Shown one piece after another: positions 30,166-44,347 of a stretch of 64,000 bases of DNA. The translations under genes were made by a program, and so were the position numbers. Under the pieces are notes generated by a model. It was not told the DNA's origin. It saw only the letters and a program-made list of their open reading frames with translations, and searched no databases. Position 1 is the first letter of the stretch; every line of letters starts with the position of its first letter. Source of the DNA: Giardia intestinalis (Eukaryota); assembly GCA_000002435.2 (NCBI GenBank), contig CM018793.1; one strand, written 5' to 3'.

Positions 30166-33100
30166 CTCATGCGAACCGCCGCGCTGGACGGCCTCTCTCA
30201 CTCAGTTTCAATGCTTCGGTGCCGCGTATCTCTGGCGAAAACGGAAGAAGGCGGGCACCCCAGCACCCGACCCTCTGCGCCTTTGTAGGATGAGCGGTAC
30301 CACAGGCATGAAAGGAGGGGCCCTCACACCCACCGCCTCAGTGAAACTCCCTGCTGAAGAGAGCATGCTGCAGTGACGGGCCCCAAGATGGCTGACGTTA
30401 TCAGTAAAACTCTCCCTAACTGAGTCGCTTAAAGAATACAGAAACGGCTCACGAACGCGCCACTTCGTCGACGGGACTACGCCTCTAGGAACCTCCCGAC
30501 TTGTCTCCGTTACGTTGTCCACGGCGCCAAAGGCTGTGAGCGGCATCCCTGCATCTCCCGTTTGAAGAGCTTTTCCACGGGTAAGGAGCTCGAGCGATAC
30601 ATTTGGAAGCGTCTCTCCCGCCTCGGGCCCTCTCTACGCAGCCTCATTCGTCAAGCAATGCCCCAGTCGAAGGCCCCCTGTTGCCCTTCCATGCCTTTGT
30701 GATCGGCTAGTATTTCAGATCATACTACACCAAACCCTGGTGTCCAAGTGCAGGCGTTCCACATGGGCCACCACTGTTGCCTGTTATCCCCTCCAGTAAA
30801 GACGACGCTAGACCGGAGCACCTTCAAGCTCCTTGGAAGTCTTCAGATACAGCTCTTAGTTCTCGTCGCCAGAGTCACATCTGATTAGGATTAGCAAAGA
30901 TGAAAACCAGAACGCCATTACCATAACCAGGGCATGATAGAACTGGGTGGCCTCTACCATGCAGCAGGAAACAGATCCGTTCTCTCTGTGTCTTGTGCTC
31001 CCAGAAAAAACGGAACTCTCTATCACCAGCTGTCCCGGGTTCAGTCACAAATCCAAGGGATGCATAGATCACGACTCGTACCGATACACTGTGGATGCTG
31101 CAGCTCTCACAAAGAAGATGTCTCGACGCCATAACAAGAGCAGAGACCTCATGTGCACACATGAGCACCTGATAAAGGGTGTAGAGCTGATGCACGTCTT
31201 AGCTGAGAGATTGGGTGCGTTTCTGAGCACGCTGGCTGACATCAGATCGAGGGAATCCTACCTGTTCGCTGATCTAAATGCGTCAACCTAGGACGGCGCC
31301 CAGGAAGCATCTAGCCGAAGCAGAACACCCCATGTTGAGCGGCACCAGATGACAGTCACTCAAGCATGAGCAGGACGAGCATCTGCCCGCTCTGCACAAA
31401 ACTCACTGGAGCCAGAGCTGTCCAAATGTACTGCGGCACAGACAGCAAGTGCAAGGTGCTACTGCGCGAAAGGATGGAGATGGCAGAGGAGATGCACCTC
31501 GTCACACTGTGGACCGCTACATGAGCAACACCCACCAGAAGGTTCCGAACAAGAATAGGCCACCGAGCGCATGAAGGACCCCCGGCGAAGAGTAGCTGCC
31601 GCCCCATGGGGCTCCTCTCCCACGGGCCCCCTCGACCCGGACTCCTCAGAGGGGATCAGGGTAGCGTACGGGCTGCACCCTGGAGGGACACGAGCCCCCT
31701 GTTCTGCAGCCAGCGGAGAGCACGGGCATCTCTCCCAAGGTAACTGACGACGAGATGACCCGGGGGTCCGTCCATGGGTTCTCGAGGTCTCCTGGACCTC
31801 GCCTAGATCTGCGTACTGGAGGTCCTCATCCCCAAGAACGAGGCAAGCATAACCTGTGGAGCGACCACGACGGCTCTTCACAGATACTGCCGGGCCATCT
31901 GAAGTCTCAGGCACTGGACACTGGGGCCTGCATGCACATATAGTATGCGCTCGTATGCGCACACGAGACTGAGGAAGCCAGGCGGTCTCGCTCGATTACA
32001 GGGCGCCCTCAACAGCAGCCCCGGTCCTGCACAGTCTCGATCAGGGGAACGTGCCCCTCGCTCTAAGGAGCTACACGAGACCTTCCTCTGGCCACAGCAC
32101 ACATGGACTCAGTCCCGTGCAGTGTTCCTCAGGGACCCTCTAGGTATGCTCCTATGCTGCGCTGGACGGAACGCGCTCACTAAGCAGCTGAAGGAGGTGC
32201 CCCCTCAGTGCCTGCGCCGACGACGTACTGATCCTGCGCGACGACAACAACGAGGCAATGAGGTTGGCAAACCCACGGACTGACGATCAACACAGACAAC
32301 TTAAGAGCACCGAGGGGGTAGGAGGGCTCCTTCCTGGGTGTCCGGTCTCGAGGAGCGGCTACCCACGGCCTCCAAGGAGATAGAGAGGGTAACGAAAAGG
32401 TTGCAACTGTGTCAATCGCCCACCACCCAAGCCAAGCTGATCTGGATAGACTCACCACGCGACCCCTACGGATCCCTCGGAGGGCAGGCCTGCCCTCTGG
32501 ACGCCCGGCTCGAGCAACAGCGGACCGAGCTCCTGGCTACGCAGGACAGCGGCAGTCGGGAGTCCACCACAAGCAGCTGCGCGGTGCTTGACACCTCGAC
32601 GTGAGACGTGGCACATGGGCAGGCTGCCAGCGGGACAGCCTCGTGGTGAGCAACGCATCGTACACGAAACGTGCCCTGGTCGCTCCGATGCTTCAGATAA
32701 CGCCTCTCGGAGAGCTGTGACCGGGCCAGCCTCTCCGGCTGAACGACTCATGGCTCCACGTACACTCTGCGGTACGGATGGGTGCAGACCACACCAGCCG
32801 AGCCGGCACACTGCACAGGGTGTGGACCTGCGAGTGTGTACTGGCTGCTGACCACCTGGCACCACAGGTGCACTGCGGTTCATGAGCAGAAGGGCGAGCC
32901 GGGCGTCTCCTCCGCGCCAACCAGGGGTCGACATGAGGGTCCACGGGCACACGCTATAATCCAGGAGGACGCATGGCGAACGCACCCCGACGGTAGGATC
33001 GATGGTCCACTCCATGAGGAGGCGAGAAGGAACCCGAGTCGGCATTCCGAGGCCATGACACATGCGATCTTCGTCGTGGAGCACTACACCCTCAAGGCCA

Positions 33101-33414
33101 GACCGCCACGACTTGCGACAGGGCCCTGGGGCAGCGGTACCCACCAGGCGCCAGGCAGCAGCCGGCCCCATGGAGGTTGAGCAAAGGAAGGGAGAAGTCC
33201 ATCGAAGGCGCTGTGGAAAACTAGCAACAGCACGAAAGGGAGCCAAACAACATTAAACCTCTTCTTTTCCCATCAGAGCTGGACGGAGTCTGAATTTCGA
33301 ATGTCGGATTTTGGATGGTAAACAAGGAAGGACCTATCTGATGAGGTGGCGGATCGCGCGATGGACTTACTCGGACAGCGGCTAGCAAACCAGCCTCGGT
33401 GAAACAGAGAGTAA
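30166..33414. repeat. left arm of 3,249-bp inverted repeat (mirror of 35463..38711)
   Basis: Reverse-complement identity was verified by eye at both ends and at three internal spots. All ORF translations in the two arms are letter-identical mirror pairs. Coordinates obey x+y=68877. Confidence 0.9.
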
Positions 33415-33828: not shown

Positions 33829-35370
33829 ATGTCTTTAGCCAAACTCGATGATGGGCGTAGCAGTCTTGAAGCTGGTGGTAGGTCGAGCGTAGAAGCCCGT
33901 CTCTTAGATGGAGAGGCTGACCTTGCATGGGCTATCGTGAATGGGCACAAAGAGATAATGAGGGTACTTTCAAAGTACGTTGGCTGGACTGACCTCATTT
34001 GTGCCGCTGCTCTTGGGAGCGTGAACAGGGTCATGGAGCACCTTGATGAGTGTGAAGAAAGGGACGTCAATGGTAGGACAGCCCTTATGTGGGCTGCTAT
34101 GAACGGGCATAAAGAGGTAGTGGAGATGTTAGTGGAGTATGGAAAGAAGATGGTTGATGACCAGGGTCATACTGCTCTGTACTACGCTCTCAAGGGTGGG
34201 TCTCTTGAGATTGCCAAAATACTTATACCTCACGAAAACCCAACCGATGAGAACGGCATCACGGCGCTCATGCGGGCTGCTACCGATAGAGACGCCGAAA
34301 TGGTGGAATTGCTTATACCACTCCAGAAGGGAATGAAGGATAAGGACGACAACACAGCGTTCGTGCATGCCCTCAAAAACAAACATACGGACATCGCTCT
34401 GCTTCTCCGCGGACATGAATCCCCCTCGTGGACTCCCTTGATGTGTGCTGCTTTCATCGGTGATGTCAAAGTAGCCAGAAGATATTTATCTAGCAAAGAT
34501 GAGAAGAATAATGATGGTAACACTGCGTTAGTACTTGCTGCGAGGGCAGGACATAGAGATATCGTAGAGCTTATTGATCCTATTGATGAGAACGGCATCA
34601 CGGCGCTCATGCGAGCTGTTGGTAGAAATGACGTGGAGGCTGTAAAAGCACTCTTACCCATCCAGAGGGGAAGAAAAACATACAAAGAGGTCACAATAAG
34701 CGGATGGTACATGCGCAAAGGAACAGCTCTGATGATGGCTGCGGCACATGGATACGCAGAAATAGTAGAACTGCTAGCAGAGCACGAAAAGGGAGAGAAA
34801 GTAGGCGGTTGGACCGCTCTCATATTCGCGGCACGGTGCAATCGTTCCAATGACCCCCTGGTGGACTATTCTAAGTGCGTTGAGCTCCTGGTAAAGCACG
34901 AGGGCGACATTTCAGGGTGGACGGATCTCATATATGCCGCTTACCGTGGCGATATTGACGCAGTCAGAAACAACCTTCATATGAAGGGAAGCCAGGATGC
35001 TGGTGGGTGGACAGCGCTTATGTATGCAGCAGCACGAGGGCACGAAGCGATTGTAGAGCTGCTCAAGCAAGAAACTCGTATGAAGAATAACGATCATCAG
35101 ACTGCCCTCATGTGGGCAGCACGCAATGATCATCCAGAGTGCGTCAGGCTCCTAATGAAGGACGAAGGCGGCATGCAAACGACCAAGGGCTGGACCGCCC
35201 TTATGAACGCAGCATATAGCAACACCGTGGAGTGTGCAAGGCTTCTTAAGGAAACCGAGAAAGATCTGAAGACAACCTGCAGCTGCCATGGTCACTCGCC
35301 TGGTACCACTGCTCTCGACATCGCTAAGAAGAAGGATCACAAAGAGATAGTAGACATCCTTTCAAGCTGA
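33829..35370 (+). CDS. ankyrin-repeat protein (Giardia protein 21.1 family), the only gene in the loop between the inverted repeats
   Basis: About 14 ankyrin units (G.TALM.AA..GH..IVELL). The ORF-track start at 33751 is a GTG. The ATG at 33829 is preceded by aaaacaaaa. Confidence 0.8.
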   Translation: MSLAKLDDGRSSLEAGGRSSVEARLLDGEADLAWAIVNGHKEIMRVLSKYVGWTDLICAAALGSVNRVMEHLDECEERDVNGRTALMWAAMNGHKEVVEMLVEYGKKMVDDQGHTALYYALKGGSLEIAKILIPHENPTDENGITALMRAATDRDAEMVELLIPLQKGMKDKDDNTAFVHALKNKHTDIALLLRGHESPSWTPLMCAAFIGDVKVARRYLSSKDEKNNDGNTALVLAARAGHRDIVELIDPIDENGITALMRAVGRNDVEAVKALLPIQRGRKTYKEVTISGWYMRKGTALMMAAAHGYAEIVELLAEHEKGEKVGGWTALIFAARCNRSNDPLVDYSKCVELLVKHEGDISGWTDLIYAAYRGDIDAVRNNLHMKGSQDAGGWTALMYAAARGHEAIVELLKQETRMKNNDHQTALMWAARNDHPECVRLLMKDEGGMQTTKGWTALMNAAYSNTVECARLLKETEKDLKTTCSCHGHSPGTTALDIAKKKDHKEIVDILSS

Positions 35371-35462: not shown

Positions 35463-38400
35463 TTACTCTCTGTTTCACCGAGGCTGGTTTGCTAGCCGCT
35501 GTCCGAGTAAGTCCATCGCGCGATCCGCCACCTCATCAGATAGGTCCTTCCTTGTTTACCATCCAAAATCCGACATTCGAAATTCAGACTCCGTCCAGCT
35601 CTGATGGGAAAAGAAGAGGTTTAATGTTGTTTGGCTCCCTTTCGTGCTGTTGCTAGTTTTCCACAGCGCCTTCGATGGACTTCTCCCTTCCTTTGCTCAA
35701 CCTCCATGGGGCCGGCTGCTGCCTGGCGCCTGGTGGGTACCGCTGCCCCAGGGCCCTGTCGCAAGTCGTGGCGGTCTGGCCTTGAGGGTGTAGTGCTCCA
35801 CGACGAAGATCGCATGTGTCATGGCCTCGGAATGCCGACTCGGGTTCCTTCTCGCCTCCTCATGGAGTGGACCATCGATCCTACCGTCGGGGTGCGTTCG
35901 CCATGCGTCCTCCTGGATTATAGCGTGTGCCCGTGGACCCTCATGTCGACCCCTGGTTGGCGCGGAGGAGACGCCCGGCTCGCCCTTCTGCTCATGAACC
36001 GCAGTGCACCTGTGGTGCCAGGTGGTCAGCAGCCAGTACACACTCGCAGGTCCACACCCTGTGCAGTGTGCCGGCTCGGCTGGTGTGGTCTGCACCCATC
36101 CGTACCGCAGAGTGTACGTGGAGCCATGAGTCGTTCAGCCGGAGAGGCTGGCCCGGTCACAGCTCTCCGAGAGGCGTTATCTGAAGCATCGGAGCGACCA
36201 GGGCACGTTTCGTGTACGATGCGTTGCTCACCACGAGGCTGTCCCGCTGGCAGCCTGCCCATGTGCCACGTCTCACGTCGAGGTGTCAAGCACCGCGCAG
36301 CTGCTTGTGGTGGACTCCCGACTGCCGCTGTCCTGCGTAGCCAGGAGCTCGGTCCGCTGTTGCTCGAGCCGGGCGTCCAGAGGGCAGGCCTGCCCTCCGA
36401 GGGATCCGTAGGGGTCGCGTGGTGAGTCTATCCAGATCAGCTTGGCTTGGGTGGTGGGCGATTGACACAGTTGCAACCTTTTCGTTACCCTCTCTATCTC
36501 CTTGGAGGCCGTGGGTAGCCGCTCCTCGAGACCGGACACCCAGGAAGGAGCCCTCCTACCCCCTCGGTGCTCTTAAGTTGTCTGTGTTGATCGTCAGTCC
36601 GTGGGTTTGCCAACCTCATTGCCTCGTTGTTGTCGTCGCGCAGGATCAGTACGTCGTCGGCGCAGGCACTGAGGGGGCACCTCCTTCAGCTGCTTAGTGA
36701 GCGCGTTCCGTCCAGCGCAGCATAGGAGCATACCTAGAGGGTCCCTGAGGAACACTGCACGGGACTGAGTCCATGTGTGCTGTGGCCAGAGGAAGGTCTC
36801 GTGTAGCTCCTTAGAGCGAGGGGCACGTTCCCCTGATCGAGACTGTGCAGGACCGGGGCTGCTGTTGAGGGCGCCCTGTAATCGAGCGAGACCGCCTGGC
36901 TTCCTCAGTCTCGTGTGCGCATACGAGCGCATACTATATGTGCATGCAGGCCCCAGTGTCCAGTGCCTGAGACTTCAGATGGCCCGGCAGTATCTGTGAA
37001 GAGCCGTCGTGGTCGCTCCACAGGTTATGCTTGCCTCGTTCTTGGGGATGAGGACCTCCAGTACGCAGATCTAGGCGAGGTCCAGGAGACCTCGAGAACC
37101 CATGGACGGACCCCCGGGTCATCTCGTCGTCAGTTACCTTGGGAGAGATGCCCGTGCTCTCCGCTGGCTGCAGAACAGGGGGCTCGTGTCCCTCCAGGGT
37201 GCAGCCCGTACGCTACCCTGATCCCCTCTGAGGAGTCCGGGTCGAGGGGGCCCGTGGGAGAGGAGCCCCATGGGGCGGCAGCTACTCTTCGCCGGGGGTC
37301 CTTCATGCGCTCGGTGGCCTATTCTTGTTCGGAACCTTCTGGTGGGTGTTGCTCATGTAGCGGTCCACAGTGTGACGAGGTGCATCTCCTCTGCCATCTC
37401 CATCCTTTCGCGCAGTAGCACCTTGCACTTGCTGTCTGTGCCGCAGTACATTTGGACAGCTCTGGCTCCAGTGAGTTTTGTGCAGAGCGGGCAGATGCTC
37501 GTCCTGCTCATGCTTGAGTGACTGTCATCTGGTGCCGCTCAACATGGGGTGTTCTGCTTCGGCTAGATGCTTCCTGGGCGCCGTCCTAGGTTGACGCATT
37601 TAGATCAGCGAACAGGTAGGATTCCCTCGATCTGATGTCAGCCAGCGTGCTCAGAAACGCACCCAATCTCTCAGCTAAGACGTGCATCAGCTCTACACCC
37701 TTTATCAGGTGCTCATGTGTGCACATGAGGTCTCTGCTCTTGTTATGGCGTCGAGACATCTTCTTTGTGAGAGCTGCAGCATCCACAGTGTATCGGTACG
37801 AGTCGTGATCTATGCATCCCTTGGATTTGTGACTGAACCCGGGACAGCTGGTGATAGAGAGTTCCGTTTTTTCTGGGAGCACAAGACACAGAGAGAACGG
37901 ATCTGTTTCCTGCTGCATGGTAGAGGCCACCCAGTTCTATCATGCCCTGGTTATGGTAATGGCGTTCTGGTTTTCATCTTTGCTAATCCTAATCAGATGT
38001 GACTCTGGCGACGAGAACTAAGAGCTGTATCTGAAGACTTCCAAGGAGCTTGAAGGTGCTCCGGTCTAGCGTCGTCTTTACTGGAGGGGATAACAGGCAA
38101 CAGTGGTGGCCCATGTGGAACGCCTGCACTTGGACACCAGGGTTTGGTGTAGTATGATCTGAAATACTAGCCGATCACAAAGGCATGGAAGGGCAACAGG
38201 GGGCCTTCGACTGGGGCATTGCTTGACGAATGAGGCTGCGTAGAGAGGGCCCGAGGCGGGAGAGACGCTTCCAAATGTATCGCTCGAGCTCCTTACCCGT
38301 GGAAAAGCTCTTCAAACGGGAGATGCAGGGATGCCGCTCACAGCCTTTGGCGCCGTGGACAACGTAACGGAGACAAGTCGGGAGGTTCCTAGAGGCGTAG

Positions 38401-38711
38401 TCCCGTCGACGAAGTGGCGCGTTCGTGAGCCGTTTCTGTATTCTTTAAGCGACTCAGTTAGGGAGAGTTTTACTGATAACGTCAGCCATCTTGGGGCCCG
38501 TCACTGCAGCATGCTCTCTTCAGCAGGGAGTTTCACTGAGGCGGTGGGTGTGAGGGCCCCTCCTTTCATGCCTGTGGTACCGCTCATCCTACAAAGGCGC
38601 AGAGGGTCGGGTGCTGGGGTGCCCGCCTTCTTCCGTTTTCGCCAGAGATACGCGGCACCGAAGCATTGAAACTGAGTGAGAGAGGCCGTCCAGCGCGGCG
38701 GTTCGCATGAG
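35463..38711. repeat. right arm of 3,249-bp inverted repeat (mirror of 30166..33414)
   Basis: See left arm. Confidence 0.9.
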
Positions 38712-40115
38712 GAATTTATTCTGACAGCATTGAAATTCTTCTACAGGGGAGACCTCCTCCACTTCCACAGGATGCCCGTGGAGAGCGGCGCAGACGGCCC
38801 CCGCTCTGTCGGCACGTGCGAGCTGGCCCCTTCGACACACACGTTCTGCGCCCTGTACGAGACAGAGGGGGCCTTGCGGTGCGTCTTCACGGCCGTGGAC
38901 AGGGTGCGCCTGTTCCTCTGCATGGCGAGCACGCAGGTGAGTTCCGGCCGTCGTGCTGGGGTCGGGGGGAAGTCGCAGAGGGACCAGGAGGGGAAGCCTC
39001 GAACGGGTTAGCACCGCATAGGACTTCCTTCCATTGCCTAAAACACGCAAGGGTGCACGCGTCCACCCACTGAGCAGGCAGATGAGGCGATGACTGATGG
39101 CAGGGTGGCCAAGACTCACTTCTGCCCTCGGCCGAGCGACACATGAAATGAAGAGCGTTTGCATCTTAAACAGATAGATATTGTGTTTTTGCGAGGCGTC
39201 TTGTCTGGGCGGTTTTGGGTTGGAGGGGCTAGAGTTATTATTTGTGCGAGGGTTGTCATGCTCTAGTGGAAGAAAGAATACAACTCGAGATATGATTGAT
39301 TCTAGAAGAGTCAACCCCAGTGAATACACATCTCCCAAAGCATCAAGAGACGTGGGTGTTACACTTTCTTGTCGGTCAAAGAGGGAACCATTAGTAGAGA
39401 GGAAATCATAGCATCTGAGCGTCGATTCAGGCGCCCTGTACACGAGGGTGCACGTTGTTCCCGTTGAAATGGGGGAGTAGTGATCGGCGGAAAGAACCTC
39501 AGGCTCAGCGTAGTTAGCAGAAGCACTTGGAGAGGAATAAACACAATACTTAGCCATCCCCAGGTCTGCAAGAAAAGCAGAGCCGTTGCCATCCAGAAGA
39601 ATGTTCGACGGCTTGACGTCTCTGTGTGCGATCCCCAGTCTGTGAAGGTTCCGAAGACAAGTAACCACAGAGTGCCAGAAGAACACCATCTGGGACAGTG
39701 TAAAGCTGCTTACTAAGTTGTACGTTCGGAACCTTTCACAGTCGTGTGGATAGAGCGGAGTGACAAGGCAGATTAGCGAAGAGCAGTTCTCGAAATGCTT
39801 CGCAAAGGGTAAGTCTTTCGTTGTATCATCGAGTCGTAATTTGAAGCTCGAGATAAGATCGATTGCAGGATTCTTAAAAGGCTGGCCGCCAGCCGTAACC
39901 TGAGCCAGGTATGCGAGTAAGGTCACTTCACGCAGCACCAGATGGTTGAAAACGCCTGAAATGCCGACAGCCTTGAGAGCAACAGGTTTGCCCGTCTCCT
40001 TATCTATCCCCTTGTAGATCGTGCCGTACGCGCCTGCTCCGAGGTACCCTGTGGGTGACCAGTCGATCGCATACCGCTCGAGGGAAGAGGGGATGGTCGG
40101 CTGTGGCTCGGTCAT
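38589..40115 (-). CDS. Ser/Thr protein kinase (catalytic motifs intact); the 3' end of the ORF is uncertain because it runs through GC-rich low-complexity sequence into the right repeat arm
   Basis: GAGAYGTIYKG, VALKAV, HRDVKPSNILL, DLGMAK, YRAPE. The ORF-track start (40217) is a TTG that reads through the tRNA. The ATG at 40113..40115 gives MTEPQPT. The kinase domain ends near 39300. Confidence 0.6.
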   Translation of the reverse strand: MTEPQPTIPSSLERYAIDWSPTGYLGAGAYGTIYKGIDKETGKPVALKAVGISGVFNHLVLREVTLLAYLAQVTAGGQPFKNPAIDLISSFKLRLDDTTKDLPFAKHFENCSSLICLVTPLYPHDCERFRTYNLVSSFTLSQMVFFWHSVVTCLRNLHRLGIAHRDVKPSNILLDGNGSAFLADLGMAKYCVYSSPSASANYAEPEVLSADHYSPISTGTTCTLVYRAPESTLRCYDFLSTNGSLFDRQESVTPTSLDALGDVYSLGLTLLESIISRVVFFLPLEHDNPRTNNNSSPSNPKPPRQDASQKHNIYLFKMQTLFISCVARPRAEVSLGHPAISHRLICLLSGWTRAPLRVLGNGRKSYAVLTRSRLPLLVPLRLPPDPSTTAGTHLRARHAEEQAHPVHGREDAPQGPLCLVQGAERVCRRGQLARADRAGAVCAALHGHPVEVEEVSPVEEFQCCQNKFLMRTAALDGLSHSVSMLRCRVSLAKTEEGGHPSTRPSAPL

Positions 40116-40130
40116 CAAAACAAGGGAAAG

Positions 40131-40203
40131 TGCCGGGGCCGGGAATCGAACCCGGACCGATCGGACGACAACCGAGCGCGCTAGACCGTTACGCCACCCC
40201 AGC
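40131..40203 (-). tRNA. tRNA-Asp (anticodon GUC), 73 nt
   Basis: I folded it by hand. Acceptor GCUGGGG/CCCCGGC with one G.U pair and discriminator A. U8. D-arm GCGU/GCGC with loop AACGGUCUA (A14, G18 G19, A21). Anticodon stem CUCGG/CCGAU with loop UUGUCGU. Variable loop CGGU. T-arm CCGGG-UUCGAUU-CCCGG. Confidence 0.65.
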
Positions 40204-40217
40204 CAGGGAGGAAACAA

Positions 40218-41285
40218 ATTAAAGATTATATAAAATATTTGGTTTAATAGAAATTATTTGTAATAGAGTATTTGTAATTTTATTGGTTTATCCTAACTTT
40301 TTCTGACAATCGTTCACTCCCTAAAATAGACACCTTTTAGGCACTAGCATCGTAAACGGTGCAGGACATAAGATCTAACATGCGTTGAAAGTTTCATCAC
40401 ACTAAATCTTCATAACCAACAAACTGGACAAAGTTCTTTTTGGAACTATTTAACTATCTGTCCAGTGCCTTAAAAAGATTTACTCTTCATTGCTATTGCC
40501 AAATTCAGGGTAATTCTAGCATTATACTCTGTACAACTCGGTCTCTTGCCAGATAAACATATTTACTATCGGCAATAACTTTGCTAGGTTACATGTAATA
40601 TAGCGAATGTTTATCGTACAATAATTGAAATTAGGCCTGTTGTCCACAAAAGTAATTTATTCTTAAAGTTACTCATTCTCTTCTAATGGAGTACTGTGCA
40701 CACAGTTCCTCTCTACTTATAAAAAGTTGACATTTGGATGCAACAACATCTTAACCAGCCTTGTAGAAAGAATCTCTATGTATGAAGCACTTCTAAGAAA
40801 TGTATTATAGTAACAACTTAAATAACATCAGACCTGTTTTAGTGTTTACCGTTGTGTTAGTCAATATTTTTATAACCATAAACAATTCTAGAGCAATTCT
40901 CCACGACAATATACCGCAGACTTCATAAGTGGTAACTATAAATTTATTCTACAATGGCACTACTACGGTTTTAAAGAAAATTGCTTCCTCATGAAACTTA
41001 CTGACTGGTTAGAAACAAAACTATTTATCATTAATTGATAATCATTAGAACTCCAGGCAGTATCTTTCAAATAACTCCCCGTTGCTTCTAATATATAGTG
41101 AGGGAATATTTACCACTTGTAAGATTATTTGAAAAGTTCATTAAATAGCACTTCCAATATCAGCATCTCTTACATTGAATAAATTTAGATGTTATTTGAA
41201 CAGAAAATTATCTTTAAACTTACTATTAATAGTCATCATATAGTGCTAAAAGCAATGGAGACAAGGATATCTGATAGAGGAGCGT
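40218..41285. other. about 1.07-kb strongly AT-rich, ORF-free island, compositionally anomalous for Giardia
   Basis: By eye about one third G+C, against about half in the flanking genes. No ORF longer than 60 aa. Bounded by the tRNA on one side and a GC-rich retroelement remnant on the other. Confidence 0.6.
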
Positions 41286-41299
41286 CATGTATGAGTTTC

Positions 41300-44200
41300 T
41301 ATATGTGGTGCCGCTGAGGCTTGTCGCGGTGCGGTCCAGAAATCTCACGGGCAAGCCTCGCTCAGTCCCTGACCAGCTCGGAGACGAAGGTTGGCTGCGG
41401 GCGTGCACATCGATCTTTTCGAGGTTTTCTTACGGGCTCGCTGGTCTACTAGGGTGCCTCTCCCTGTTCTCCCTTCACGATTGGCGAAGCTCTGGTCTTT
41501 GTTGTCATTCTCAATACTGTCCATGTAGATCAGCAGCAGCTAACGGGGCCCTCTCCACTGGCTGGGATTCCACTCGGTTGTGTGTCCAGTCTTGCGCCCC
41601 CTTTCGGTCGTTGTCGACAGGTCCCAGGGATGGATTCATTCGGTTGTCAGAAGTAGGATGACAGGAGGCGGTCGCTCTGGGTGGCCAGGCTTTCGGCCCG
41701 GTCGCGTCTGATCAGCTTCGTCAGGTGCTCGTTCGCCTCTGCAGCCATGTGGGCGATGGCGAAGGCAGCCCGGACAGAGAGCTTCTCGACGTCCACGTGG
41801 AGCTCCTCGAGGTGCCTCTTGGACCTGGGGTGGAGGGATCCGTCCGTCTCATAGATGATCGGGAGCGTCCCGTCCCTGTACTTCTTGGCCTTCTCGCTGT
41901 GGTATCCATCTGGCGGGGCTGGATGACACCCACGTCCACTGCCTTGCACTTGTCGACGAGCCAGATGTCGGGCTTCTGGTTCTGGTCGCTGAGGTGGCTG
42001 TGGGTCTTGACTTCCAGCTCCGGTTGAGCTTCCCCGAGACGCGGAGGTACAGGTACGCGACGATCATGTTGTGCCTCGTGGTCGAGGGTCTGCCGTGTGG
42101 CAGCCCGGGCAGGTGCCTCTTGTCTGCGCCATGATCGAGCCATCTCTCTCCTTCAGGGCCCTTTCCTCCTCGGTCAGCACGCCGCCGCTCTGTCCGGAAG
42201 CTGATGTGTGCGCGTGAGGAGGCGGTTGAAGTAGGTCCCCTTCCCCTGCAGTGCCTGGCCGCCCACCGACAGCTCCACCGGGTCCCTGGTCCCCTTGTTG
42301 ACGTCCGGGGAGGCCCATGCCCTCCGCAGCTCGTCGTGGCAGAGCCCCGGCATGAGCAGGCCCAGGCCGCTCTTCTCCTTCGGGTACGCCAGGAAGTCGA
42401 CCAGGCGATCGCAGCTTCTGCTGGTTAGCTTGTTGAAGCCTTGTGCGACGTCTGTCGAGCTCCTCGTAGTCCGCCTTGTCCGATGTCATCTCGACCAGGG
42501 GGGCGTAGTTCACCATCGGGACCACGCAGAGTGACAGCAGGATGAGCTTCTGGTGGGTGGTTATGGGGGCAGTCTCGGCACCTGCGATGGCCTTTGGTGC
42601 GGGACTGGCTGGAGTGGGGGACACCGGGTGGCTGAGGAAGGTCACCTCCTCGCCCGCCATGGTGGACTTGCATTTGTCGCTCCTTATCGTCAGGTCCATA
42701 GCCTGCTGTACTATTGCGCCTGCTGGGTAGGCCTCATCGTGGAGCGCCACGATGTCGTCTGCATAGGCAAGGAAGGCGATGCCTCTCTCCGTGAGGCGTC
42801 TCAGAGGCGCTCGATGGCCATGCAGAAGAGGAGCGTGCTGAGCGGGTCGTCCTGGGGGACGCCGCAGACCCCGCACTTCACGTCCTTGCTGTGCCTCAGG
42901 TCGAGGAAGTTCCTGATGTAGTCGACCAGGACCTTCGGGATGCCCGCCTCGTTCAGGGCTCTGACGACCTCTGCCCTCGGGAGCGAGTTGAAGGCCTTCT
43001 TTGTGTCGAGGGAGACGGCGTGCACCTGTCCTGCTGATGAGCTCGTGGGCCCTCCTCATGCCTACCGCGTATGCGTTCTGCATGAAGGCGATCTGTTCGC
43101 ACGAGAGGTAGTTGGCATGCTTGATCAGCCGCTTCAGCAGGACGCGGTGGAAGATGTTTGTCACCGTCTCGCCATCGCGATCGGACGGTATCCGTCGGAC
43201 TCCTTCGGGATGAGGATCGCCCGGAACTCGAACATGGCCATCACGTCGGACATCGCCTCGGGGTGGGTGGTCAGCTCGTTGTACGCCTGCGTGAGGTACT
43301 TCACGAAGTCGTCGTTCTGCTTCCTCGCTTTGAGCTGGACCGCCCGAGGCCTTCTTGTTGAGGGTCCCAACAGGGCCTTCCTCATTTCTTCTTCGGTTGC
43401 CGGCTCCAGCCCGTTGAGCTCATCGATGGAGGGTAGTCAAGGCTAACGTAGCCTTCGGGGGGACGCACGGGTGTAACGCGCTGAGGGCGGCCTTGGCTTT
43501 CTCCGGCTTGATGTCAACCATGGGCGTATCATCAAGGGCGCGGAGAGCCTTGGCAACTGCTCCGAAGCTCAGCGCGTTACTCACCCTGTTTGCTATCCGG
43601 CGCCTCGCCTTCTCGGGGTCTGGGTCTGCCTTACTCTGGGACTGCTCCGTGGTGTTGCTTGAGTCCTCCAGGCCTCCTACCAGGGCGTTCAGGCCCCTGA
43701 TTGCGGGGAGCGCGACCCCAGTCCCGGGCTGCTCGATGCTCGCGATCATGCGCGCACCCTGGTGGATGAGCATGGCAGCTGTCTGGTTCGGTATGTGGGA
43801 CGGAAGGATCGGTTTGTCGTCGCCCGGTACTCTGTGTCTGTCGTTGTTTGCTTCTCTTAGATGCTCGGTTGGTTGCTTGGCACCCTCGCACGGTAGGCCA
43901 CAGAGCCAGCGTGTGTGTCCTGCCGAGAGGGCAAACGTCTTCGGAGTGGTCTCCCAAGTAGAACCTCACGATTGCTCTCTGGGGCCCGGAGGTACGATCT
44001 TGCGTTCATGATGTGGATCGGGTCTTCGCGGGCTCTCCTTCGCCTCAGATCCAGCTGTGCACACTCCCAGTCTGGGCACACACCCGCAGAACAGCTGAGG
44101 AACGCAATAGCTCCTCCCTTCCACTACTGTGGTCATTATCATATTCCATAGCCAACCCTCGTCTCCGGACATCGCCAAAAATTGAGTGGGAATTTACTCG

Positions 44201-44347
44201 CGAGATTTGCGGACAGCACCCGCAGGCGAGGGCCCCAGCAGCACACCACTGGAAGCAACCGGTGGGTGGAGTAAATGATGAGCGAGGATGCCGTTCAACA
44301 TAGTGACTCGTACGATGGACTTACTCAGACTGCGGCCAGCAAACCAA
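41300..44347 (-). mobile_element. degenerate non-LTR retrotransposon remnant (dead GilD/Genie-like element) with a frame-shifted reverse transcriptase
   Basis: All minus strand. RT motif 1 ILIPKESDGYRPIAM is near 43165..43210. Motif A LDTKKAFNSL is near 42985. Motif B GVPQDDPLSTLLF is near 42869. Motif C FLAYADDIVAL is near 42765, followed by SDKCKS...FLSHP. These lie in different frames with an in-frame stop at about 43158. Confidence 0.6.

What the first reader, a model, noticed from the sequence alone, without database searches (positions are those of the whole stretch)
40218..41285. Anomalous about 1-kb AT-rich, ORF-free island between tRNA-Asp and the retroelement remnant
Giardia sequence is normally near 50% G+C and almost entirely coding. 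This stretch is visibly much more AT-rich (about one third G+C by eye), has no ORF longer than 60 aa on either strand, and contains short internal repeats (tatttgtaat twice; attaattgataatcatta is an imperfect palindrome). It is bounded sharply by the tRNA at 40203 and by GC-rich sequence at about 41285. Candidate explanations are a long 3'-UTR or tail of the adjacent dead element, a remnant of a different AT-rich element or foreign DNA, or a functional AT-rich chromosomal element such as a replication origin, a nuclear matrix attachment region (MAR) or a centromere-associated tract.
Basis: seen in the sequence. Interest (0 to 1): 0.55.

Follow-up and report, generated by a model that had tools for sequence, protein, structure and literature searches.

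The report
AT-rich spacer beside a Giardia tRNA
A real, 1.1-kb, gene-free, unusually AT-rich stretch sits just upstream of a tRNA gene in Giardia; it travels with the tRNA and the neighbouring kinase gene in a duplicated fragment and is not the tail of the dead retroelement beside it, but why it is so AT-rich remains open.

Summary
Window 40204-41304 is 31% G+C against a window mean of 51%. It is the only such stretch in 64 kb. It has no ORF above 48 codons, no codon periodicity, no Rfam match and no protein homologue.

The island is not the tail of the adjacent retroelement. Three other copies of that GilD-like element end without it. The island is instead the 5' spacer of a tRNA(GTC)-CDK-kinase unit. 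An independent assembly shows an intact kinase, the tRNA and 813 bp of island, identical to the window.

Giardia WB carries two kinase copies on one chromosome. The window holds the truncated one, so both sharp borders are explained: the tRNA gene on one side and a rearrangement junction with the broken element on the other.

Assemblage E has unrelated, GC-rich DNA at the same position. Neutral decay does not explain the composition: equilibrium G+C is about 0.57 and GC3 is 0.52.

The origin is unresolved. It could be replaced or foreign non-coding DNA, or an ancestral relic. A role as a replication origin or centromere is untested and somewhat disfavoured.

The parts
40204..41304 (.). AT-rich, non-coding island (31% G+C). 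It is the 5'-flanking spacer of the tRNA-kinase unit.
   Evidence: Composition. No ORF above 48 codons. No period-3 signal. No Rfam family. No protein homologue for six-frame peptides. No copy elsewhere in the window.
40131..40203 (-). tRNA gene with anticodon GTC (Asp). It forms the left border of the island. Its orthologue in three other Giardia lineages is tRNA-His(GTG).
   Evidence: ARAGORN; Rfam tRNA at 57.2 bits; alignment and pair counts.
40229..40238 (-). TATA-like ATATTTTATA at -35 to -26 of the tRNA. It lies within the roughly 60 bp of island that still resembles the tRNA upstream flank of other lineages.
   Evidence: The same decamer occurs at -36 to -27 in L007. The proximal 60 nt are 47-52% identical to P15, L007 and L012, with shuffle p of 0.001-0.02.
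40403..40482 (.). Imperfect 80-nt hairpin or inverted repeat inside the island (arms TAAATCTT/AAGATTTA, ACTGGACA/TGTCCAGT, AGTTC/GAACT).
   Evidence: Sliding-window fold z of -4.3. As RNA: -18.7 kcal/mol, z -4.5 on the plus strand and z -3.6 on the minus strand; 0 of 200 shuffles fold as well. Function unknown; no sequence variation is available for a covariation test.
39147..40115 (-). N-terminal two thirds of a CMGC/CDK kinase gene. This is the truncated duplicate, annotated as the 508-aa 'Kinase' KAE8305393. Homology to the intact gene ends at 39147.
   Evidence: Pfam Pkinase. P0025 is 100% identical and P0032 is the intact 545-aa copy on the same 4.02-Mb contig. Breakpoint alignment.
39199..41016 (-). 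Stretch shown to exist in a second context. It is identical to Logan contig L011, where the kinase is intact.
   Evidence: blastn gives 99.5% over 39147-41016, and all 10 mismatches lie within 39157-39198.
41305..44278 (-). Dead GilD-like non-LTR retroelement remnant with reverse transcriptase (YADD motif). It forms the right border of the island, and its 3' terminal inverted repeat is largely missing.
   Evidence: All reverse-transcriptase relatives are from Giardia and several carry PF00078. Three DH copies align to 41418/41435-44231/44278. Alignment is lost below about 41395, with only a weak repeat-like match at 41328-41400.
40255..40278 (+).
   Evidence: Present, but the number of such repeats equals that in shuffled sequence.

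Best explanation
The island is the non-coding 5' spacer of a tRNA-kinase gene unit in Giardia assemblage A. The copy in this window is part of a fragment of about 2.15 kb (39147 to about 41300). The fragment holds the spacer, the tRNA and the first two thirds of the kinase. It was duplicated from the intact kinase locus, which lies about 140 annotated genes away on the same 4-Mb chromosome. The fragment now sits in a patchwork of rearranged DNA, between a GC-rich 3.2-kb inverted repeat and the broken 3' end of a dead GilD-like retroelement. This explains both sharp borders. The left border is the tRNA gene. The right border is a rearrangement junction, so the native island may be longer.

Shown: the island is real and non-coding. 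It is not part of the retroelement family. It is linked to the tRNA and kinase in an independent assembly. WB has two kinase copies. Assemblage E has unrelated GC-rich DNA at the same position.

Inferred: the spacer distal to about -60 was replaced in the assemblage A lineage or the E lineage, since tRNA genes are common rearrangement sites. Its 31% G+C reflects where the DNA came from, not local mutation pressure. It has no function of its own beyond the proximal TATA-like Pol III promoter region. It probably also drives promiscuous initiation of sterile transcripts, because Giardia TATA and Inr elements are merely degenerate AT-rich sequences (PMC1885649).
For: The composition anomaly and non-coding nature rest.

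Three DH-isolate copies of the retroelement (L003-L005) align to window 41418-44278 only. After their 3' end they carry an inverted copy of their own first 190-220 bp, not AT-rich DNA. No 500-bp stretch below 38% G+C occurs in those 49 kb.

Contig L011 carries 813 bp of island, the tRNA(GTC) and an intact 545-aa kinase. It is 100% identical to window 39199-41016.

WB encodes both the 508-aa truncated kinase (KAE8305393) and the 545-aa intact kinase (KAE8305533) on the 4,018,654-bp contig. Both were already in the 2007 annotation. Xu et al. report that 6.9% of the WB genome is duplicated and that tRNA genes are among the duplicates (PMC7000408).

In P15, the kinase and tRNA align at 87.6% down to the tRNA 5' end. 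Upstream of that lie 1171 bp of non-coding DNA at 58% G+C with no similarity to the island. A long gene-free spacer upstream of this tRNA also exists in two AT-rich Giardia lineages: 585 bp in L007 and at least 320 bp in L012.

The proximal 60 bp are weakly homologous across lineages and include a shared TATA-like box.

Private substitutions in the four dead reverse-transcriptase copies give an equilibrium G+C of 0.57 (139 strong-to-weak against 118 weak-to-strong changes on a 61% G+C background). GC3 of WB genes is 0.52. Neutral decay therefore cannot generate 31%.
Against: The native WB locus upstream of the intact kinase could not be fetched. That the island also sits there in WB is inferred from a different sample (L011), which ends inside the island at 41016.

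No source for the AT-rich DNA was found. An out-of-equilibrium composition with no detectable donor is equally what selective maintenance of AT-richness would give.

One hairpin (40403-40482) folds better than chance, and short inverted repeats are marginally enriched. Both could point to a function.

The dinucleotide signature does not differ significantly from the rest of the window (delta* 0.107 against 0.075 +/- 0.025), which gives no positive support for a foreign origin.

The distance of about 140 genes between the two kinase copies assumes that accession numbers follow gene order.
Confidence: 0.5

Rival explanations
1. The island is the long 3' UTR or tail of the adjacent dead (GilD-like) retroelement. 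The reverse transcriptase is on the minus strand, so the island does lie 3' of it.
For: Orientation fits: reading the minus strand gives element, then island. [quoted passage not shown]
Against: Three other copies (85-88% identical) end at the position equivalent to about 41395-41435 and continue with an inverted terminal repeat. None has AT-rich DNA or any match to the island. The island is contiguous with the tRNA and kinase in L011. GilM and GilT sequences themselves were not available for comparison.
Confidence: 0.03
2. The island is a functional AT-rich chromosomal element, such as a replication origin of the fission-yeast 'A+T-rich island' type, a diatom-type low-GC centromere core, or a matrix attachment region. 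In this case selection keeps it AT-rich.
For: It is out of compositional equilibrium with no sign of recent foreign origin. It is below 33% G+C over more than 500 bp (minimum 29.4%) and non-repetitive, which matches the criteria that suffice for diatom centromere function (10.1101/096016). It is the only such island in 113 kb of assemblage A DNA examined. It contains a hairpin with z of -4.5.
Against: It is not present at the orthologous position in assemblage E. The duplicated tRNA-kinase unit that carries it exists twice on one chromosome, about 140 genes apart, which is awkward for a centromere. The right border is a rearrangement junction rather than a natural edge. There is no direct functional evidence, and Giardia origins and centromeres are not defined in any source I could reach.
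Confidence: 0.12
3. The island is a remnant of foreign DNA acquired in the assemblage A lineage next to a tRNA gene. Possible donors are bacteria, viruses or the host. It is still unameliorated.
For: Atypical G+C next to a tRNA gene. It is absent from assemblage E at this site. CpG observed/expected is 0.54 against 0.81 for the rest of the window. Composition is far from the local equilibrium.
Against: There is no protein-coding trace, although prokaryotic and viral DNA is mostly coding and a recent arrival should still be recognisable. There is no match in plasmids or phages. Exact 20-24-mers found nothing in viral, prokaryotic or metagenome contigs. The overall dinucleotide signature is within the window's own range. 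Eukaryotic (host) genomes could not be searched.
Confidence: 0.12
4. The island is a relic of an ancestral AT-rich non-coding composition. Deeper Giardia lineages are AT-rich, assemblage A retained the old spacer, and assemblage E replaced it with GC-rich DNA.
For: A long spacer upstream of this tRNA is present in four lineages, and it is AT-rich in L007 (26%) and L012 (40%). GC3 of the kinase falls from 0.51-0.55 (A) to 0.48 (E), 0.365 (L012) and 0.30 (L007), so the island's 31% equals the near-neutral composition of the AT-rich lineage. The proximal 60 bp are homologous, and WB shares the AT-rich TATA-like box with L007 where P15 has G/C.
Against: No similarity to the L007 or L012 spacers beyond the proximal 60 bp, although that is expected at this divergence. 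Synonymous sites and dead elements in assemblage A have moved to or sit near 50-57% G+C. A neutral relic should have followed unless it was shielded. Other intergenic DNA in the window is 48.6% G+C.
Confidence: 0.15
5. The island encodes one or more unannotated non-coding RNAs, or serves as a promoter or leader for the tRNA-kinase unit.
For: A hairpin with z of -4.5. The kinase ATG lies only 15 nt after the tRNA, so the kinase promoter must overlap or precede the tRNA. AT-rich DNA initiates transcription readily in Giardia (PMC1885649).
Against: No Rfam family at E of 1 or below. The mean fold z over the island is -0.25, and only 2 of 50 windows fall below -2. No sequence variation is available to test covariation, because L011 is identical. 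One kilobase is far more than Giardia promoters need.
Confidence: 0.08

Closest known systems
Segmental duplications of the Giardia WB genome (Xu et al. 2020, PMC7000408)
   Same: A short, near-identical duplicated stretch with one gene plus a tRNA, sitting among multigene-family members (ankyrin 21.1-type, NEK kinases), reverse-transcriptase remnants and inverted repeats. That paper reports 6.9% duplicated DNA and extra tRNA copies.
   Different: The duplicate here is partial. The kinase is cut at codon 317 or thereabouts. It also carries an exceptional AT-rich spacer, which that paper does not describe.
Long 3' UTRs of Giardia non-LTR retrotransposons GilM, GilT and GilD (Arkhipova and Morrison 2001; cited through PMC5537684 and PMC2861651)
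   Same: The island lies 3' of a reverse-transcriptase remnant of the GilD kind, which is dead, GC-rich and found next to VSP genes in other copies.
   Different: It is not shared by three other copies of the element. Its composition is the opposite (31% against 61% G+C). It is linked to the tRNA-kinase unit instead.
Low-GC centromeres of diatoms (Diner et al., bioRxiv 10.1101/096016), and the AT-rich centromeres of Plasmodium and Cyanidioschyzon cited there
   Same: A non-repetitive stretch of 500 bp or more below 33% G+C in a genome near 48% G+C, with no conserved motif.
   Different: There is no evidence for one per chromosome or for cenH3 binding. The duplicated unit that carries it has two copies on one chromosome. 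It is not conserved in position in assemblage E.
A+T-rich island replication origins of Schizosaccharomyces pombe (Segurado et al. 2003; cited from my own knowledge, not read here)
   Same: An intergenic 0.5-1-kb stretch whose A+T content stands well above the intergenic average.
   Different: Nothing is known of the origin determinants in Giardia, and no initiation data were available.
Compositionally atypical islands next to tRNA genes (horizontally acquired genomic islands; tRNA-targeted retroelements such as Dictyostelium TRE5 or yeast Ty3; cited from my own knowledge)
   Same: Atypical G+C directly flanking a tRNA gene, lineage-specific.
   Different: No integrase, reverse transcriptase, LTR, target-site duplication or any coding capacity. 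The 60 bp next to the tRNA appear ancestral rather than inserted. No donor was found.

Membership tests
3' UTR or tail of the GilD-like retroelement | The sequence is present 3' of the reverse-transcriptase region in other copies of the same element family | tested here: not met
   L003, L004 and L005 align to 41418-44278 only. Their 3' ends are followed by an inverted terminal repeat, with no island match.
3' UTR or tail of the GilD-like retroelement | Similarity to the 3' regions of GilM or GilT | not testable with these tools
   No GilM or GilT DNA could be fetched, and the original paper is not held.
Segmental duplication | A second, near-identical copy in a different flanking context | tested here: met
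   L011 is identical over 39199-41016 but continues into an intact kinase. WB has 508-aa and 545-aa kinase genes on one contig.
Segmental duplication | The island is present at the native locus of the same genome (WB) | not testable with these tools
   The look-up of P0032 returned no DNA. This is inferred from L011 only.
Low-GC (diatom-type) centromere | At least 500 bp at or below 33% G+C, non-repetitive | tested here: met
   Minimum 500-bp G+C is 29.4%. No tandem repeats, and direct repeats are at chance level.
Low-GC (diatom-type) centromere | One per chromosome, occupied by cenH3 | not testable with these tools
   No whole genome or ChIP data were available. The carrying unit exists twice on one chromosome, which argues against this.
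Low-GC (diatom-type) centromere | Position retained in close relatives | tested here: not met
   P15 has unrelated DNA at 58% G+C at the orthologous site.
A+T-rich island replication origin | An intergenic 0.5-1-kb stretch with A+T well above the intergenic mean | tested here: met
   69% A+T against 51% for short intergenic DNA in the window.
A+T-rich island replication origin | ORC binding or initiation activity | not testable with these tools
   This needs SNS-seq or ORC ChIP.
Horizontally acquired DNA | Detectable homology to a donor lineage | tested here: not met
   No hit for six-frame peptides among 5.8 billion protein clusters. No hit in plasmids or phages. No exact 20-24-mer in metagenome, prokaryote or viral contigs. 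Host genomes were not searchable.
Horizontally acquired DNA | Oligonucleotide signature foreign to the host genome | tested here: inconclusive
   G+C is strongly atypical. The dinucleotide delta* of 0.107 lies within the window's own spread of 0.075 +/- 0.025. CpG observed/expected is 0.54 against 0.81.
tRNA-targeted mobile element | Element hallmarks: coding capacity, terminal repeats, target-site duplication | tested here: not met
   No ORF and no homologue. No terminal repeats. The proximal 60 bp look ancestral.
Structured non-coding RNA gene | Match to a curated family, or structure supported by covariation | tested here: inconclusive
   No Rfam match. One hairpin with z of -4.5. The only second copy is identical, so covariation cannot be assessed.
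Decayed protein-coding gene | Residual codon periodicity or protein similarity | tested here: not met
   Period-3 signal is 0.62, in the lowest 2.5% of windows. There are 23-33 stops per frame. No homologue.

The most novel reading that the evidence does not exclude
The island is one of a small set of selectively maintained low-GC elements of Giardia chromosomes, either a replication origin or a centromere core of the simple 'low-GC, no motif' type seen in diatoms. Its AT-richness would then be kept against a GC-favouring substitution regime. The window would hold a recently duplicated, possibly inactive, copy.
Probability: 0.1. Interest if true: 0.85.

Novelty: new member of a known kind. Interest (0 to 1): 0.4.

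Why it matters
Giardia has a compact genome of about 46-49% G+C. Its replication origins and centromere DNA are, as far as I could find, undefined. A non-coding kilobase at 31% G+C is therefore a rare object. The substitution pattern of dead elements and GC3 both point to an equilibrium at or above 50%, so it cannot be explained by decay. That makes it either a marker of recent DNA replacement at a tRNA gene or a cheap, testable candidate for a chromosomal element.

The practical result is more modest. The island should not be annotated as part of the GilD-like element. It belongs to a duplicated tRNA-kinase fragment, which illustrates how patchwork regions of the WB genome are built. The adjacent tRNA has also switched anticodon from His to Asp with compensatory stem changes. 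That switch is arguably the more concrete biological lead.

Tried and rejected
1. In-window copies: blastn with word size 7, and purine/pyrimidine-recoded local alignment to detect a hypermutated copy. Nothing rose above shuffles.
2. Tandem and dispersed repeats: none, or at chance level.
3. Rfam at E of 1 or below found only the tRNA. The Giardia intron branch/acceptor motif is absent from the island.
4. Six-frame peptides concatenated and searched against 5.8 billion protein clusters gave no hit. tblastx against all fetched loci gave none.
5. Plasmid and phage blastn in distant mode gave none.
6. Exact-pattern scans gave none. They covered the 5' half of the tRNA and an island 24-mer in metagenome contigs, a 24-mer in prokaryote genomes, and two 20-mers in viral contigs.
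7. Smith-Waterman alignment of the island against the spacers of P15, L007 and L012 scored at shuffle level.
8. The dinucleotide signature was not discriminating.
9. A 3'-transduction idea (element, then island, tRNA and kinase on one strand). It has no support: there is no poly(A) or recognisable end at the 39147 breakpoint, and the element copies are old (8-9% pairwise divergence) while the duplicated stretch is identical to its second copy.
10. Look-ups of window proteins and of WB P0032 to fetch the native locus failed, which exhausted that tool.
11. The Arkhipova and Morrison 2001 paper is not held. The paper on assemblages C and D gave no G+C figures and no link to the ERR333338x runs.

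Full report
**Observation.** The stretch is real. G+C over 40218-41285 is 31.3%. The window mean is 50.9% (SD 4.6% for windows of the same length), the 2 kb to the left is 55% and the 2 kb to the right is 62%. It is the global minimum of the 64-kb window. A three-segment likelihood fit puts the borders at 40212 and 41304. Twelve of the 15 100-bp windows at or below 32% G+C in the window fall inside it, and the next-lowest 500-bp stretch elsewhere is 41%. Short intergenic DNA in this window averages 48.6% G+C, so the island is anomalous for Giardia non-coding DNA too (genes approximated by ATG-ORFs of 150 aa or more).

It is non-coding by every test available:
- Each frame has 23-33 stops, and the longest run between stops is 48 codons.
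- The period-3 signal is 0.62 against a window median of 4.47.
- Rfam finds no family other than the flanking tRNA.
- The concatenated six-frame peptides find no protein homologue.

**Organism and neighbours.** All relatives of the reverse-transcriptase ORF at 42064-43164 are from Giardia duodenalis. The kinase ORF at 38589-40115 is identical to the 508-aa 'Kinase' KAE8305393 / XP_001708886 of strain WB, on a 4,018,654-bp contig. The tRNA is at 40131-40203 on the minus strand with anticodon GTC. The kinase ATG follows 15 nt after the tRNA, directly after a TTTT run.

**The retroelement and the right border.** Three other copies of the element were fetched from the DH isolate (L003-L005; two lie next to VSP genes, as the literature says of GilD: PMC2861651). 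They align to window 41418/41435-44231/44278 at 85-88% by BLAST. None aligns to the island. In those copies the 3' end is followed by an inverted copy of the element's own first 190-220 bp. The window copy loses similarity below about 41395 and keeps only a weak repeat-like match at 41328-41400. The island is therefore not a shared tail or UTR of this element family. The G+C jump at about 41300 is the junction between a broken element end and something else. GilM and GilT could not be compared.

**What the island belongs to.** A search with the N-terminal 338 aa of the kinase found an intact 545-aa form in many assemblies. Its cluster includes a second WB gene, 'Kinase, CMGC CDK' KAE8305533 / XP_001705061, on the same 4.02-Mb contig. 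The two WB proteins are identical up to about residue 316 except at positions 22 and 313, and are unrelated after that. The accession numbers are 140 apart, so the two copies probably lie about 140 genes apart. This assumes that numbering follows gene order.

A Logan contig from another sample (L011) contains the intact kinase, the same tRNA(GTC) and 813 bp of island. It is identical to the window from 39199 to 41016, and all ten mismatches lie in 39157-39198, next to the breakpoint at 39147. The island therefore travels with the tRNA-kinase unit. The window holds a partial duplicate of that unit, about 2.15 kb long. The duplicate is wedged between the broken retroelement and a region containing a perfect 3249-bp inverted repeat. 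This fits the published description of WB: 6.9% duplicated DNA, extra tRNA copies, and reverse-transcriptase remnants inside inverted gene pairs (PMC7000408). The native WB locus itself could not be fetched.

**Comparison across lineages.** In P15 (assemblage E), the kinase and tRNA align at 87.6% right up to the 5' end of the tRNA. Upstream of that lie 1171 bp of gene-free DNA at 58% G+C with no similarity to the island. Two AT-rich Giardia lineages were recovered from Logan assemblies: L007-L010 (35% G+C) and L012 (40%). They are probably dog assemblages, though this was not verified. Both also have a gene-free spacer upstream of the same tRNA, of 585 bp and at least 320 bp respectively, and neither spacer aligns to the island. 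Only the 60 bp nearest the tRNA are weakly but significantly similar between lineages (47-52% identity, shuffle p of 0.001-0.02). These 60 bp include an ATATTTTATA box at -35 to -26 that WB shares with L007. A long spacer is thus a positional constant of this locus, while its sequence and composition are not. Between assemblages A and E it must have been replaced, because point substitution cannot account for the difference.

**Why it is AT-rich.** Neutral decay does not explain it. Private substitutions in the four dead reverse-transcriptase copies comprise 139 strong-to-weak and 118 weak-to-strong changes on a 61% G+C background. This gives an equilibrium G+C of 0.57 overall, and 0.49-0.69 per copy. 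GC3 of WB genes is 0.52. The island is therefore out of equilibrium. Either it arrived from an AT-rich source and has not yet ameliorated, or it is a shielded relic, or selection keeps it AT-rich.
- No source was found in plasmids, phages, or viral, prokaryotic or metagenome contigs.
- It is not a transition-hypermutated copy of other DNA in the window.
- Its dinucleotide signature lies within the window's own range.
- Its G+C equals the GC3 (0.28-0.30) of the AT-rich lineage L007. This is compatible with a relic or with introgression, but there is no sequence evidence for either.

**Possible function.** The proximal TATA-like box is a plausible Pol III upstream element (inference). Giardia TATA and Inr elements are degenerate AT-rich sequences that initiate in both directions (PMC1885649), so the island is likely to emit sterile transcripts (inference). 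One 80-nt hairpin at 40403-40482 folds far better than shuffles (z of -4.5 and -3.6). The rest of the island does not (mean z of -0.25).

The island satisfies the simple compositional criteria of diatom centromeres, namely below 33% G+C over 500 bp or more with no repeats (10.1101/096016). It also resembles fission-yeast A+T-rich-island origins. Three points count against a conserved chromosomal role: it is absent at the orthologous site in assemblage E, the unit that carries it exists twice on one chromosome, and its right edge is a rearrangement junction. None of this could be tested directly.

**Verdict.** The retroelement-tail reading is refuted. The best-supported description is a lineage-specific, non-coding 5' spacer of a tRNA-kinase unit, carried along in a partial segmental duplication (confidence about 0.5). 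The cause of the low G+C is unresolved. The rival readings are an ancestral relic (0.15), foreign DNA (0.12), a functional chromosomal element (0.12), a non-coding RNA or leader (0.08), and the element tail (0.03). A genome-wide copy count and low-GC scan of the WB assembly, overlaid with cenH3, ORC and transcript data, would settle it.

Noticed in passing
window 40131-40203 (-); L006 9914-9985; L007 745-816; L012 322-393; L011 814-887: The tRNA directly upstream of the CDK kinase is tRNA-Asp(GTC) in assemblage A (WB and L011). At the same position in P15 and in two AT-rich Giardia lineages it is a nearly invariant tRNA-His(GTG). The WB gene differs at 14 of 73 positions. These include three fully compensatory stem pairs (7-66, 11-25 and 12-24, all AU to GC), one broken pair (28-44), a 1-nt D-loop insertion and the third anticodon base. 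The acceptor and T arms are otherwise identical. This looks like an anticodon shift or remoulding in place, or a partial gene conversion.
   Followed up: partly
window 30166-33414 and 35463-38711: A perfect (100%) 3249-bp inverted repeat of GC-rich DNA (about 61% G+C) flanks the ankyrin gene at 33829-35370. The kinase duplicate is cut 435 bp from its right arm. Part of the repeat is 76% identical to L003 5600-6402 in the DH isolate.
   Followed up: partly
L005 3449-6515 (also L004 8543-11672, L003 9193-12292); L005 3015-3445 and 6514-6942: The GilD-like reverse-transcriptase remnants in the DH isolate end with an inverted copy (about 88-91% identical) of their own first 165-220 bp. In L005 the whole unit is additionally flanked by 430-bp direct repeats at 97% identity. 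This architecture is unusual for a non-LTR element. It may reflect the palindromic VSP-pair contexts described by Xu et al..
   Followed up: partly
window 39157-39198: All ten differences between the truncated window copy and the intact copy (L011) cluster in the 42 bp next to the breakpoint. At most of them the truncated copy keeps the P15-like, presumably ancestral, state. The following 1.8 kb are identical. This suggests an older duplication homogenised by gene conversion up to about 39199.
   Followed up: partly
window 40116-40130; L006 9986-10000; L007 817-866; L012 394-436: The kinase start codon lies 14-50 nt downstream of the tRNA in all four lineages. In WB and P15 the tRNA's TTTT terminator directly precedes the ATG. 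The kinase promoter must therefore overlap or lie upstream of the Pol III gene.
   Followed up: no
L007-L010 (Logan SRR17450160, SRR17450158, ERR3333381, ERR3333382) and L012 (ERR3333383): These Giardia lineages are syntenic with P15 (tRNA-His, kinase, SNF2 helicase) but have much lower G+C: 35% and 40% overall, with kinase GC3 of 0.30 and 0.365 against 0.51-0.55 in assemblage A. Composition therefore shifts strongly within the species complex.
   Followed up: partly
window 41418-44231 aligned with L003, L004 and L005: Private substitutions in four dead reverse-transcriptase copies imply an equilibrium G+C of about 0.57. The WB copy shows more AT-to-GC than GC-to-AT changes (51 against 36). 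There is thus no AT-biased decay in this genome compartment.
   Followed up: yes
window 40403-40482: An 80-nt imperfect hairpin inside the island folds with z of -4.5 (plus strand) and -3.6 (minus strand) relative to dinucleotide shuffles. It is the only strongly structured segment of the island.
   Followed up: partly
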